Positions 16,980 through 20,078 of a stretch of 64,000 bases of DNA are shown piece after piece. Source of the stretch: Escherichia coli (lineage in GTDB: Bacteria; Pseudomonadota; Gammaproteobacteria; Enterobacterales; Enterobacteriaceae); the NCBI RefSeq assembly GCF_003334305.1, contig NZ_QOWS01000004.1, one strand, 5' to 3'. The notes beneath the pieces were generated by a model. That model searched no databases. It was not told where the DNA came from and saw only the letters and a list, made by a program, of their open reading frames with translations. Position numbers and translations under genes: made by a program. Positions within the stretch are counted from its first letter, which is position 1, and the number at the start of each line of letters is the position of its first letter.

Positions 16980-19900
16980 ATGGGGGATATTATGCGTCCC
17001 ATTCCGTTTGAGGAACTTTTGACGCGCATATTTGATGAATACCAACAACAACGCTCAATCTTTGGTATTCCCGAGCAACAGTTTTACTCACCTGTAAAAG
17101 GTAAAACTGTTAGCGTCTTCGGTGAAACCTGTGCCACTCCCGTCGGCCCTGCCGCTGGCCCGCACACGCAGCTCGCGCAAAATATTGTCACTTCCTGGCT
17201 GACTGGCGGACGCTTCATCGAACTAAAAACCGTCCAAATTCTTGACCGCCTGGAGCTGGAAAAGCCCTGTATCGATGCCGAAGACGAGTGCTTTAACACC
17301 GAATGGTCTACCGAATTTACCCTGCTTAAAGCCTGGGATGAATACCTCAAAGCCTGGTTTGCCCTGCACCTTCTCGAAGCGATGTTCCAGCCTTCTGATT
17401 CCGGTAAATCGTTCATCTTTAATATGAGCGTCGGTTACAACCTCGAAGGTATTAAGCAACCGCCGATGCAACAGTTCATCGACAATATGATGGACGCATC
17501 TGACCATCCGAAATTCGCTCAATATCGCGATACGCTGAATAAATTACTCCAGGATGACGCATTTTTAGCTCGCCACGGATTGCAGGAAAAACGCGAAAGC
17601 TTGCAAGCCTTACCCGCTCGCATCCCCACCAGTATGGTGCATGGCGTCACCCTCTCCACCATGCACGGCTGTCCTCCGCATGAAATCGAAGCCATTTGCC
17701 GCTACATGCTGGAAGAAAAAGGGCTCAACACCTTTGTGAAACTTAACCCGACCTTACTGGGATACGCGCGTGTTCGTGAGATCCTCGATGTCTGCGGTTT
17801 CGGTTACATAGGCTTAAAAGAAGAGTCATTTGATCACGACCTCAAGCTGACGCAAGCACTGGAAATGCTGGAACGCCTGATGGCACTGGCAAAAGAAAAA
17901 TCACTCGGCTTTGGCGTAAAACTGACTAACACTCTCGGCACCATCAACAATAAAGGCGCACTGCCTGGTGAAGAGATGTATATGTCAGGCCGTGCGCTGT
18001 TCCCGCTCTCCATCAATGTTGCAGCAGTTCTCTCTCGCGCCTTTGACGGCAAACTGCCCATTTCTTATTCCGGTGGTGCCAGTCAGCTGACTATCCGCGA
18101 TATTTTTGATACTGGTATTCGCCCTATTACTATGGCAACCGACCTGCTGAAACCAGGCGGCTATCTGCGCTTAAGTGCCTGCATGCGCGAGCTGGAAGGC
18201 TCCGACGCCTGGGGGCTTGACCATGTTGACGTCGAACGACTGAACAGACTGGCAGCAGATGCGTTAACCATGGAATACACCCAGAAACACTGGAAGCCAG
18301 AAGAGCGTATTGAAGTGGCAGAAGACCTGCCGCTGACCGATTGCTACGTTGCCCCCTGTGTTACTGCCTGTGCTATCAAGCAAGATATTCCGGAATACAT
18401 CCGTCTGCTTGGCGAACACCGCTATGCCGACGCGCTGGAACTCATCTACCAACGCAACGCTCTGCCCGCCATTACCGGTCATATTTGCGATCACCAGTGC
18501 CAATACAACTGTACCCGCCTGGATTACGACAGTGCGCTGAATATCCGCGAACTGAAAAAAGTCGCGCTGGAAAAAGGTTGGGATGAATATAAGCAACGCT
18601 GGCACAAACCAGCCGGTTCTGGTTCACGCCATCCAGTTGCCGTGATTGGTGCAGGTCCGGCGGGTCTGGCAGCAGGTTACTTCCTTGCCAGAGCGGGCCA
18701 TCCGGTTACGCTGTTTGAACGCGAAGCCAATGCTGGCGGCGTGGTGAAAAATATCATTCCTCAGTTCCGTATTCCTGCAGAGTTAATTCAGCACGATATC
18801 GATTTTGTTGCCGCTCACGGCGTGAAATTTGAGTATGGCTGCTCACCCGATTTGACCGTTGAACAGTTAAAAAATCAGGGCTTCCACTATGTTCTGATTG
18901 CCACCGGCACTGATAAAAATAGCGGTGTGAAACTGGCGGGCGACAACCAAAATGTCTGGAAATCACTCCCCTTCCTGCGTGAATACAACAAGGGTACAGC
19001 GCTCAAGCTGGGCAAACATGTGGTCGTTGTCGGGGCGGGTAACACCGCAATGGACTGCGCTCGTGCGGCGTTACGCGTTCCAGGCGTAGAAAAAGCAACG
19101 ATCGTTTACCGTCGTTCACTGCAAGAGATGCCCGCATGGCGCGAAGAGTATGAAGAAGCGTTGCACGACGGCGTGGAGTTCCGTTTCCTGAATAATCCGG
19201 AATGTTTCGATGCTGATGGCACCTTAACCTTGCGCGTTATGTCGCTTGGCGAACCCGATGAGAAAGGTCGTCGCCGTCCGGTTGAAACCAACGAAACAGT
19301 AACACTGCATGTAGACAGTCTGATCACCGCCATCGGTGAACAGCAGGATACTGAAGCCCTGAATGCGATGGGCGTACCGCTGGACAAAAACGGCTGGCCA
19401 GACGTCGACCATAATGGCGAAACTCGTCTGACTGACGTCTTTATGATCGGCGACGTACAGCGCGGACCATCCTCCATTGTCGCTGCTGTCGGAACCGCGC
19501 GTCGGGCGACCAATGCCATCCTTAGTCGGGAAAATATCCGTTCCCACCAGAACAATAAATACTGGAACAACGTCAATCCGGCGGAAATCTATCAACGTAA
19601 AGGCGATATCTCTATCACGCTGGTGAACAGTGACGATCGTGATGCGTTTGTCGCGCAGGAAGCTGCTCGCTGCCTTGAATGTAACTACGTTTGCAGCAAG
19701 TGCGTGGATGTCTGCCCGAACCGCGCCAACGTCTCCATTGCAGTCCCTGGCTTCCAGAATAGATTCCAGACGCTGCACCTCGACGCTTACTGTAACGAAT
19801 GCGGCAACTGCGCTCAGTTCTGTCCGTGGAACGGTAAACCATACAAAGACAAAATCACCGTCTTCAGCCTGGCGCAAGACTTTGATAACAGCAGCAACCC

Positions 19901-20078
19901 AGGCTTCCTTGTGGAAGATTGCCGGGTACGAGTACGTCTGAATAACCAAAGCTGGGTGTTAAACATCGACAGCGAAGGTCAGTTTAACAACGTACCACCG
20001 GAGCTGAACGATATGTGCCGCATCATCAGCCATGTCCACCAGCATCATCATTATCTGCTGGGCCGCGTGGAGGTGTAA
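16980..20078 (+). CDS. ygfK: Large Fe-S flavoprotein oxidoreductase (putative molybdenum-hydroxylase partner)
   Basis: 1032 aa; central Cys-rich segment, GltD-like dinucleotide fold ([21 protein letters not shown]), two C-terminal 4Fe-4S motifs (CLECNYVCSKCVDVCP, CNECGNCAQFCP). Confidence 0.9.
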   Translation: MGDIMRPIPFEELLTRIFDEYQQQRSIFGIPEQQFYSPVKGKTVSVFGETCATPVGPAAGPHTQLAQNIVTSWLTGGRFIELKTVQILDRLELEKPCIDAEDECFNTEWSTEFTLLKAWDEYLKAWFALHLLEAMFQPSDSGKSFIFNMSVGYNLEGIKQPPMQQFIDNMMDASDHPKFAQYRDTLNKLLQDDAFLARHGLQEKRESLQALPARIPTSMVHGVTLSTMHGCPPHEIEAICRYMLEEKGLNTFVKLNPTLLGYARVREILDVCGFGYIGLKEESFDHDLKLTQALEMLERLMALAKEKSLGFGVKLTNTLGTINNKGALPGEEMYMSGRALFPLSINVAAVLSRAFDGKLPISYSGGASQLTIRDIFDTGIRPITMATDLLKPGGYLRLSACMRELEGSDAWGLDHVDVERLNRLAADALTMEYTQKHWKPEERIEVAEDLPLTDCYVAPCVTACAIKQDIPEYIRLLGEHRYADALELIYQRNALPAITGHICDHQCQYNCTRLDYDSALNIRELKKVALEKGWDEYKQRWHKPAGSGSRHPVAVIGAGPAGLAAGYFLARAGHPVTLFEREANAGGVVKNIIPQFRIPAELIQHDIDFVAAHGVKFEYGCSPDLTVEQLKNQGFHYVLIATGTDKNSGVKLAGDNQNVWKSLPFLREYNKGTALKLGKHVVVVGAGNTAMDCARAALRVPGVEKATIVYRRSLQEMPAWREEYEEALHDGVEFRFLNNPECFDADGTLTLRVMSLGEPDEKGRRRPVETNETVTLHVDSLITAIGEQQDTEALNAMGVPLDKNGWPDVDHNGETRLTDVFMIGDVQRGPSSIVAAVGTARRATNAILSRENIRSHQNNKYWNNVNPAEIYQRKGDISITLVNSDDRDAFVAQEAARCLECNYVCSKCVDVCPNRANVSIAVPGFQNRFQTLHLDAYCNECGNCAQFCPWNGKPYKDKITVFSLAQDFDNSSNPGFLVEDCRVRVRLNNQSWVLNIDSEGQFNNVPPELNDMCRIISHVHQHHHYLLGRVEV

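What the first reader, a model, noticed from the sequence alone, without database searches (positions are those of the whole stretch)
16980..20078. ygfK: 1032-aa multidomain Fe-S flavoprotein with a ~450-aa N-terminal domain lacking recognizable cofactor motifs
The C-terminal two-thirds contains a Cys-rich segment, a GltD-like dinucleotide-binding fold and two 4Fe-4S motifs. The first ~450 residues show no motif I can assign. The ygfK stop is 2 nt from the ssnA start, which has its SD inside ygfK, implying translational coupling with the amidohydrolase SsnA. This fused architecture next to a cluster-free XdhD suggests YgfK is the electron-transfer partner.
Basis: partly seen in the sequence, partly recalled or inferred. 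Interest (0 to 1): 0.45.

Follow-up and report, generated by a model that had tools for sequence, protein, structure and literature searches.

The report
YgfK: a rearranged dihydropyrimidine-dehydrogenase-like purine reductase
The gene is E. coli ygfK, and its "motif-free" first 450 residues form the flavin-binding catalytic barrel of an enzyme already shown in 2025 to reduce 2,8-dioxopurine during anaerobic uric acid breakdown, so the finding is real but already explained.

Summary
The ORF at 16980-20078 is real. It encodes 1032 aa, is 100% identical to E. coli ygfK, and ends 2 nt before the ssnA ATG, with a GGAGG inside ygfK. The middle and C-terminal parts are as described: Fer4_20, an FAD/NAD(P)H fold and a two-cluster ferredoxin.

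YgfK therefore has all four DPD modules in a different order. It looks like a PreA-like barrel plus ferredoxin, with a PreT-like NADPH module inserted between them. Natural short forms lack the insert and sit in uric-acid clusters.

Two 2025 papers show YgfK is an NAD(P)H:2,8-dioxopurine reductase working with SsnA. One already modelled it on pig DPD.

The idea that YgfK feeds electrons to XdhD is not supported. XdhD-YgfM works without it, ygfK mutants accumulate XdhD's product, and long YgfK also accompanies xanthine dehydrogenases that keep their clusters. That loss remains unexplained.

The parts
16968..16977 (+). Shine-Dalgarno sequence (AAGGAGAGGG) of ygfK
   Evidence: Read directly from the sequence. 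It ends 2 nt before the ATG at 16980.
16980..20078 (+). ygfK ORF, 1032 aa plus stop: NAD(P)H:2,8-dioxopurine reductase
   Evidence: TIGR03315, 1781 bits. Function taken from PMC12507026 and bioRxiv 10.1101/2025.04.24.650524.
16980..18299 (+). aa 1-440: DHODH/DPD-type (beta/alpha)8 barrel, with an invariant-rich segment at aa 87-114 (between strand 2 and the next long helix) and helical segments at aa 155-214. Inferred FMN and substrate site.
18336..18575 (+). aa 453-532: Fer4_20 segment (DPD domain I / PreT / GltD N-terminus), with invariant C455, C460, C464, C503, C507, C511
   Evidence: Pfam PF14691, E 3e-16. Alignment to PreT. Invariant Cys.
18633..19496 (+). aa 552-839: FAD and NAD(P)H dinucleotide-binding folds, with GAGPAG at aa 557-562, GAGNTA at aa 685-690 and YRRS at aa 710-713
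   Evidence: Pfam PF07992, E 1e-41. 30% identity to PreT, E 3e-46. NfnA, GltD and DPD hits. R711/R712 are at least 90% conserved.
19662..19844 (+). aa 895-955: 2x[4Fe-4S] ferredoxin segment, with invariant C898, C901, C905, C908, C912, C938, C941, C944, C948
   Evidence: Weak Pfam Fer4_7/9/10 hits. Invariant Cys. Contiguous with the barrel in short-form homologs and in PreA.
19845..20075 (+). aa 956-1032: conserved C-terminal tail (small sheet plus helix, ending ..YLL..), also present in short-form homologs
   Evidence: alignment; model, pLDDT mostly above 90.
20069..20073 (+). GGAGG Shine-Dalgarno of ssnA, inside the last codons of ygfK
20081..21409 (+). ssnA: amidohydrolase that opens the ring of YgfK's product. 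It starts 2 nt after the ygfK stop.
   Evidence: TIGR03314, 740 bits. PMC12507026.
21460..22239 (+). ygfM: FAD-binding subunit of the preceding pathway enzyme. Its stop overlaps the xdhD start by 4 nt.
   Evidence: TIGR03312, 490 bits.
22236..25106 (+). xdhD: Mo subunit that makes YgfK's substrate. Its N-terminal 2Fe-2S-fold domains lack all Cys ligands.
   Evidence: PMC12507026.

Best explanation
YgfK is a single-chain, domain-rearranged relative of dihydropyrimidine dehydrogenase. It carries out the second step of anaerobic uric acid breakdown.

Proposed electron path: NAD(P)H reduces the FAD in the PreT/GltD-like module (aa ~550-850). Electrons then pass through the [4Fe-4S] clusters of the Fer4_20 segment (aa 453-532) and the C-terminal ferredoxin segment (aa ~895-955). 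They arrive at an FMN held in the N-terminal DHODH/DPD-type TIM barrel (aa 1-440). There 2,8-dioxopurine, the product of XdhD-YgfM, is reduced and dearomatised. SsnA, whose start codon lies 2 nt after the ygfK stop, hydrolyses the unstable dihydro product and pulls the reaction forward.

Architecture: barrel, then PreT-like module, then ferredoxin plus tail. This reads as a PreA-like 'barrel + ferredoxin' core with the NAD(P)H input module inserted between the two halves.

Shown by published experiment: the substrate, the NAD(P)H dependence, the Fe-S content and the coupling with SsnA.

Shown here: the fold of residues 1-450, the module order, the conserved residues and the existence of insert-less short forms.

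Inferred: FMN occupancy, the order of electron carriers, the number of clusters (four, from 15 invariant Cys as I recall for DPD), and which residue (H229 or C231) is the proton donor.
For: Identity and family.

Fold of aa 1-450:
- The AF2 model has pLDDT 92.8 and pTM 0.92.
- The Foldseek top hits are pig DPD and class-2 DHODH, at E 1e-9 to 5e-8 and probability 1.0.
- The family profile aligns with E. coli PreA at 94.8% probability. KLTNT aligns with AAINT, YMSGRALFPL with YSGKAVKPIAL, and PISYSGG with PISGIGG. The alignment continues into the ferredoxin of short forms.
- Residues invariant in 47 full-length homologs are K83, N106, S226, K254, N317, T318, S336, G337 and G366. By my recollection of DHODH/DPD structures these lie at the strand ends where that fold holds FMN and the pyrimidine ring.

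Middle module:
- 30% identity to PreT over its whole length, E 3e-46.
- PDB hits to NfnA/NfnB, GltD and DPD residues 63-499.
- YRRS at aa 710-713 is shared with the NfnA and StnC chains aligned, whereas NADH-dependent PreT has ARE there. This fits the NADPH requirement reported.

Insertion model:
- Homologs of 557-593 aa align with YgfK aa 1-455 and 903-1032, with one clean gap in between.
- They lie in uric-acid clusters. One is next to an SsnA-like gene, a 69-aa ferredoxin and an XDH. Another is next to YgeY, YgeW and YgeX.

Biochemistry and genetics: PMC12507026, bioRxiv 10.1101/2025.04.24.650524 and PMC12990295.
Against: No flavin analysis distinguishing FMN from FAD has been reported for YgfK in the texts I could read.

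The barrel does not match Pfam DHO_dh (PF01180) at any threshold. The family HMM does not reach DHODH or DPD in the PDB. The assignment of the barrel therefore rests mainly on a predicted structure.

Sequence alignment of the first half of the barrel to PreA is unstable: two runs gave two different registers. The mapping of K83, N106 and the S226-C231 loop relies on strand order in the model rather than a residue-level superposition.

The canonical N-x-S-C-P catalytic loop of DPD/DHODH reads S-T-M-H-G-C in YgfK.

The two papers disagree on two points. One saw YgfK alone make product with NADPH and not NADH. The other saw product only with SsnA present and used NADH.
Confidence: 0.88

Rival explanations
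1. YgfK is the Fe-S/flavin electron-transfer subunit of a YgfK-YgfM-XdhD complex, supplying the clusters that XdhD has lost. This is the first reader's view and the older 'selenate reductase Fe-S subunit' annotation.
For: XdhD does lack all eight 2Fe-2S cysteines, and the loss is conserved in its clade. That leaves no obvious path from YgfM-FAD to Mo. ygfK, ssnA, ygfM and xdhD lie head to tail with short or overlapping junctions, and the scan found terminator-like sites no more often than chance across the region (12 against 10.2 expected). The old annotation lists YgfK, YgfM and YgfN as the Fe-S, FAD and Mo subunits (PMC2276186; the RefSeq name).
Against: Affinity-purified XdhD brought down only a band of about 30 kDa (YgfM), and with NADH it made 2,8-dioxopurine without YgfK. 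ygfK mutants of C. sporogenes and E. coli accumulate 2,8-dioxopurine, so the XdhD step runs without YgfK. YgfK alone or with SsnA consumes 2,8-dioxopurine. Selenate is neither needed nor stimulatory. Long-form YgfK co-occurs with XDHs that have intact Fe-S subunits (L006), and short-form YgfK co-occurs with a Cys-complete XDH (L003). A catalytic barrel occupying 43% of the protein is unnecessary for a pure electron carrier.
Confidence: 0.05
2. The N-terminal barrel has lost flavin binding and serves only as a substrate-binding or scaffolding domain. Under this view, reduction occurs at the FAD or at an Fe-S cluster.
For: There is no Pfam DHO_dh match. The catalytic-loop motif differs from DPD. 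No published FMN measurement was found.
Against: Residues at the positions I expect to contact FMN phosphate and the isoalloxazine ring are invariant across 47 homologs of 32-55% identity: K83, K254, N317-T318, S336-G337, G366. Short forms lack the FAD module entirely yet stay in the pathway clusters, with a ferredoxin gene alongside. Published modelling also places an FMN site there. C. difficile replaces YgfK with UacX, an FMN-dependent PydA-type barrel enzyme that does the same reaction.
Confidence: 0.05
3. YgfK is a selenate reductase component, as the RefSeq product name says.
For: The product name 'putative selenate reductase subunit YgfK'. I recall older genetic work on selenate reduction in E. 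coli that gave rise to this name, and the table in PMC2276186 reflects it.
Against: Selenate neither required for nor enhanced YgfK activity. The gene lies in, and is required for, the uric acid pathway. Haft and Self already doubted a primary selenate-reductase role for the region.
Confidence: 0.02

Closest known systems
Dihydropyrimidine dehydrogenase (mammalian DPD/PydA, PDB 1H7X/1GT8; E. coli PreT-PreA)
   Same: All four module types are shared: the Fer4_20 two-cluster segment, the FAD + NAD(P)H folds, a DHODH-type FMN barrel and a 2x[4Fe-4S] ferredoxin. YgfK has 15 invariant cluster cysteines; I recall the same count for pig DPD. Both enzymes carry out NAD(P)H-driven reduction of a ring double bond in a 2-oxo N-heterocycle, followed by an amidohydrolase ring opening (DHPase versus SsnA).
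   Different: The module order is barrel, Fer4_20, FAD/NADPH, ferredoxin, instead of Fer4_20, FAD/NADPH, barrel, ferredoxin. It is also not a simple PreA-PreT or PreT-PreA fusion. The barrel is about 120 residues larger, is only 14-18% identical, and is invisible to Pfam DHO_dh. The catalytic loop reads STMHGC rather than NxSCP. The substrate is 2,8-dioxopurine. There is an extra conserved 77-aa C-terminal tail.
Class 1/2 dihydroorotate dehydrogenases (PDB 6AJ5, 1DOR, 1EP1, 6B8S)
   Different: There is no detectable sequence-profile match, the barrel has large insertions, and it is fused to Fe-S and NAD(P)H modules. The substrate is a purine.
UacX / clostridial PydA-type barrel enzymes (C. difficile)
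   Same: The same reaction in the same pathway, coupled to SsnA. They lack an NAD(P)H module, like the short YgfK forms found here.
   Different: UacX matches Pfam DHO_dh (PF01180). The YgfK-type barrel, in both long and short forms, does not.
GltD / NfnB / StnC NADPH-input modules
   Same: aa ~450-850 align at 30-34% identity and TM about 0.77 to the target. The YRR(S/T) motif is shared.
   Different: Those proteins deliver electrons to other partners (glutamate synthase large subunit, a bifurcating flavin, formate dehydrogenase-like subunits). In YgfK the acceptor is an in-chain barrel.

Membership tests
TIGR03315 Se_ygfK (YgfK equivalog) | Full-length HMM score above the curated cut-off of 835.3 bits | tested here: met
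   1780.9 bits; residues 2-1027 align to profile positions 1-1012.
DPD-type Fe-S flavoenzymes (PydA / PreT-PreA) | Fer4_20 segment plus FAD/NAD(P)H folds homologous to PreT / DPD domains I-III | tested here: met
   PF14691 at E 3e-16 and PF07992 at E 1e-41. PreT at 30% identity, E 3e-46. DPD 1H7X residues 63-499 at E 3e-30.
DPD-type Fe-S flavoenzymes (PydA / PreT-PreA) | DHODH-like FMN-binding TIM barrel | tested here: met
DPD-type Fe-S flavoenzymes (PydA / PreT-PreA) | 2x[4Fe-4S] ferredoxin segment following the barrel | tested here: met
   CxxCxxCxxxCP at aa 938-949 and a variant first motif at aa 898-913, with all Cys invariant. Weak Pfam Fer4 hits. In short forms it directly follows the barrel, as in PreA.
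DPD-type Fe-S flavoenzymes (PydA / PreT-PreA) | Module order I-II/III-IV-V (or split PreT + PreA) | tested here: not met
   The order is IV-I-II/III-V. A sequential structure search with the full-length model aligns only the middle module to DPD.
DPD-type Fe-S flavoenzymes (PydA / PreT-PreA) | Catalytic Cys in the N-x-S-C-P loop after strand 4 | tested here: inconclusive
   The loop reads S226-T227-M-H229-G230-C231. S226 is invariant in both alignments; T227, H229, G230 and C231 are at least 90% conserved. Sequence alignments to PreA gave conflicting registers, and no residue-level superposition was available.
DPD-type Fe-S flavoenzymes (PydA / PreT-PreA) | Uracil/thymine as substrate | not testable with these tools
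   Published assays give 2,8-dioxopurine as the substrate, and it was selected over the other two xanthine isomers.
Pfam PF01180 DHO_dh | HMM match at or above threshold | tested here: not met
   No Pfam hit to aa 1-450 even at E<=10.
Electron-transfer subunit of XdhD-YgfM ('YgfKMN selenate reductase') | Physical association with XdhD-YgfM, and requirement for the XdhD reaction | not testable with these tools
   The literature argues against it. Only YgfM co-purified and NADH sufficed. ygfK mutants accumulate the XdhD product.
Electron-transfer subunit of XdhD-YgfM ('YgfKMN selenate reductase') | Fe-S/flavin-bearing YgfK co-occurs specifically with cluster-free XdhD | tested here: not met
   Long-form YgfK in L006 neighbours a three-subunit XDH whose Fe-S subunit keeps all Cys. 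The XDH next to short-form YgfK in L003 also keeps them. Only a few loci were sampled.

The most novel reading that the evidence does not exclude
XdhD-type urate reductases have lost both 2Fe-2S clusters, so they may not be able to move electrons from YgfM-FAD to molybdenum by the canonical route. In that case they would depend in vivo on an external Fe-S protein docking near the Mo site. The nearby YgfT-YgfS or AegA are other candidates, which I recall being linked to formate-dependent urate degradation. The reported NADH activity of XdhD-YgfM would then be a slow side route.
Probability: 0.08. Interest if true: 0.6.

Novelty: already known. Interest (0 to 1): 0.15.

Why it matters
YgfK is one of the enzymes that lets gut bacteria dispose of uric acid, which bears on gout and hyperuricaemia. 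Its function and its resemblance to DPD were published in 2025, so the finding adds no new biology.

This analysis adds some detail:
- Quantitative support that the unannotated N-terminal 43% of the protein is the FMN catalytic barrel. One of the two papers still called it a domain of unknown function.
- A description of the architecture as a PreA-like core split by a PreT-like insert.
- Natural insert-less short forms next to ferredoxin genes.
- A sequence rationale (YRRS) for NADPH preference.

The RefSeq name 'putative selenate reductase subunit' is outdated. The one open point lies next door: how XdhD works without its two clusters.

Tried and rejected
Sequence-level attempts to name residues 1-450 all failed or were weak:
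- Pfam on the full protein and on 1-450 alone.
- phmmer against PDB sequences.
- A family HMM against PDB, which only picked up ferredoxins because the short-form homologs carry a ferredoxin segment.

hhalign of the trimmed barrel profile against PreA, alone or with 116 close PreA homologs, gave only about 26-27% probability. The strand registers in the first half of the barrel were inconsistent between runs. I therefore did not use those alignments for residue mapping.

The PreA homolog search returned only sequences at least 73% identical, so it added little profile depth.

The Foldseek search with the full-length model aligned only the middle module because the domains are permuted.

A sigma-54-like TGGCA-N7-TGC site 83 nt upstream of ygfK is not distinguishable from chance by count, at 6 matches against 4.4 expected.

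The sigma-70 and terminator scans gave counts at chance level. The only well-placed site is a GC-rich hairpin just after xdhD.

One broad literature query on XdhD and Fe-S was unproductive.

I considered that the 550-600 aa homologs were truncated fragments. I rejected this because they start at Met, carry the ferredoxin and the conserved ..YLL tail, and are internal to their contigs.
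Full report
**1. The observation.**

The window has an ATG-initiated ORF at 16980..20078 (+) of 1032 codons. A strong Shine-Dalgarno sequence precedes it. The DNA is 100% identical to annotated ygfK of several E. coli strains, and the gene is present in 5182 of 5426 complete E. coli genomes. The protein matches the NCBIfam equivalog TIGR03315 end to end at 1781 bits, against a cut-off of 835.

The stop TAA is at 20076-20078. The ssnA ATG is at 20081, and a GGAGG at 20069-20073 lies inside ygfK. The annotated ssnA start and the SsnA family model agree with that ATG.

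It finds Fer4_20 at aa 453-532, Pyr_redox_2 at 552-839 and a 4Fe-4S dicluster at about 895-955.

There is no Pfam hit even at E<=10 and no PDB sequence hit. A family HMM does not reach any barrel enzyme in the PDB.

**2. What residues 1-450 are.**

A phmmer scan of 1.84 billion cluster representatives found 1449 relatives, 458 of them below 1e-30. In nearly all, the domain starts at residue 1.

With 33 of these as the alignment, AlphaFold2 gave a confident model with pLDDT 92.8 and pTM 0.92. It is a (beta/alpha)8 barrel with an N-terminal hairpin and extra segments at aa 87-114 and 155-214.

A profile-sequence comparison with E. coli PreA reaches 94.8% probability over the second half of the barrel. 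It aligns KLTNT with AAINT, YMSGRALFPL with YSGKAVKPIAL and PISYSGG with PISGIGG.

In an alignment of 47 full-length homologs at 32-55% identity, these residues are invariant: K83, N106, S226, K254, N317, T318, S336, G337 and G366. T227, H229, G230 and C231 are at least 90% conserved.

By strand order in the model, these residues sit at the ends of strands 2, 4, 5, 6, 7 and 8. From my own knowledge of DHODH and DPD structures, those are the positions where the fold carries its FMN-binding lysines, its substrate-binding Asn residues and the catalytic loop. I could not make a residue-level superposition. Sequence alignments of the first half of the barrel were unstable. The identity of the proton donor, H229 or C231, therefore stays open.

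**3. The whole architecture.**

Residues 455-847 are 30% identical to E. coli PreT over its full length, at E 3e-46. They also match NfnA/NfnB, GltD and DPD residues 63-499.

YgfK thus contains every module of DPD but in the order barrel, Fer4_20, FAD/NAD(P)H, ferredoxin. Only DPD among solved structures is hit both by the N-terminal model and by the middle module.

Some relatives of 557-593 aa are complete proteins. They align with YgfK aa 1-455 and 903-1032 with a single clean gap, and they carry the ferredoxin motifs and the same ..YLL C-terminal tail.

Two of these short forms sit in uric-acid clusters. One lies between an SsnA-like amidohydrolase and a 69-aa 2x[4Fe-4S] ferredoxin followed by an XDH (L003). 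The other lies beside YgeY, YgeW and YgeX homologs (L004).

The simplest reading is that a PreA-like 'barrel + ferredoxin + tail' is the catalytic core, and that the PreT-like NAD(P)H module was inserted between barrel and ferredoxin in the long form.

The full-length AlphaFold model is compact and confident, with pLDDT 92.6 and pTM 0.90.

Fifteen cysteines in the cluster regions are invariant: six in Fer4_20 and nine in the C-terminal segment. By my recollection, pig DPD uses 15 Cys plus one Gln for its four [4Fe-4S] clusters. Four clusters per YgfK chain is therefore a reasonable inference, not a result.

YRRS at aa 710-713 (R711 and R712 at least 90% conserved) matches the NfnA and StnC chains aligned. 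NADH-dependent PreT has ARE at that position. This suggests an NADPH preference.

**4. What is known.**

Two 2025 studies established the function.

Life Metab (PMC12507026) shows that XdhD-YgfM reduces urate to 2,8-dioxopurine ('yanthine') with NADH. It shows that Fe-S-reconstituted YgfK plus SsnA plus NAD(P)H converts this to ureidomethyl-hydantoin. It also states that modelling suggests an FMN site for substrate reduction and an FAD site for NAD(P)H, resembling pig PydA.

The bioRxiv study (10.1101/2025.04.24.650524) shows that ygfK mutants accumulate 2,8-dioxopurine. Purified YgfK needs NADPH and selects 2,8-dioxopurine among the three xanthine isomers. Selenate is irrelevant to its activity. 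[quoted passage not shown]

A commentary summarises both studies. C. difficile replaces YgfK with UacX, a PF01180 barrel enzyme that does the same reaction.

The older label, 'selenate reductase Fe-S subunit' with YgfM as the FAD subunit and YgfN/XdhD as the Mo subunit, appears in PMC2276186 and survives in RefSeq product names.

**5.

The tight ygfK-ssnA junction is real. It fits the reported need to couple an unfavourable reduction to hydrolysis. Translational coupling itself remains an inference from the geometry.

The proposal that YgfK is the electron-transfer partner of XdhD is not supported, for four reasons:
- XdhD co-purifies only with a protein of about 30 kDa and works with NADH.
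- The XdhD product accumulates when ygfK is deleted.
- YgfK is a self-contained reductase.
- Long-form YgfK is also found beside a three-subunit XDH whose Fe-S subunit keeps every cysteine (L006). The XDH next to a short form keeps them too (L003).

**6.

XdhD retains the fold of both 2Fe-2S domains. Pfam finds Fer2_2 at E 6e-12, and XdhD is 34% identical to XdhC. Yet it has no cysteine in its first 188 residues. All eight ligand positions are replaced by D, A, D, S and S, N, S, D.

The same substitutions occur in more than 60 homologs down to about 46% identity, including sequences labelled Citrobacter, Vibrio, Photobacterium and Morganella.

The papers I could read treat XdhD-YgfM as a canonical XDH-like complex with FAD as the electron-entry module. 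They do not mention the missing clusters. How electrons reach Mo is therefore open. This lies outside the coordinates of the present finding.

**7. Verdict.**

The N-terminal domain is resolved as a divergent DHODH/DPD-type FMN barrel and the probable catalytic site. YgfK is a domain-rearranged DPD relative with a published function. The electron-partner hypothesis is not supported. Novelty is 'already known' and interest is low. The cluster-free XdhD is the only loose end worth pursuing.

Noticed in passing
window 22236-22800 (XdhD aa 1-188): XdhD keeps the fold of both [2Fe-2S] domains (Pfam Fer2_2; 34% identity to XdhC) but has no cysteine at all in this stretch. All eight cluster ligands are replaced by D, A, D, S and S, N, S, D. 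The same replacements occur in more than 60 homologs down to about 46% identity. The papers I read on XdhD-YgfM do not mention this, so the electron route from YgfM-FAD to Mo is unexplained.
   Followed up: partly
L003 5621-7321 and L004 435-2129 (proteins P0101, P0033; also P0141, P0125, P0108, P0109, P0124): There are natural short-form YgfK homologs of 557-593 aa, made of the YgfK-type barrel, a 2x[4Fe-4S] ferredoxin and the C-terminal tail, with no PreT-like NAD(P)H module. They lie in uric-acid-type clusters, once directly before a 69-aa ferredoxin gene and a Cys-complete XDH. They differ from the PF01180-type UacX described in the literature.
   Followed up: partly
window 22236-22239: The ygfM stop overlaps the xdhD start by 4 nt (ygfM ends at 22239 and xdhD starts at 22236). 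This is a second tight junction in the same gene row. A GC-rich hairpin at 25116-25131 follows the xdhD stop and may mark the end of the transcription unit.
   Followed up: no
window 16883-16897: A sigma-54-like TGGCA-N7-TGC element lies in the 320-nt gap upstream of ygfK, and a sigma-54 activator gene (ygeV) lies in the same region. The pattern occurs 6 times in the window against 4.4 expected, so by count it is not distinguishable from chance.
   Followed up: partly
window 16980-20078 (product name in public records): RefSeq and NCBIfam still name the product 'putative selenate reductase subunit YgfK', and XdhD 'Mo/Fe-S-binding subunit'. The first name is superseded by the 2025 biochemistry. 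The 'Fe-S-binding' part of the second is contradicted by the sequence.
   Followed up: yes
window 19671-19715 (YgfK aa 898-912): The ferredoxin segment of long-form YgfK has nine invariant Cys rather than eight. The extra pair begins R-C898-L-E-C901, which resembles the R-C-L-L-C that opens PreT's Fer4_20 motif. YgfK's own Fer4_20 segment has T452 at the position of the first of those cysteines (LTDC against PreT's CLLC). C898 may therefore complete a Fer4_20 cluster from the other side of the insert. I could not check this without model coordinates.
   Followed up: no
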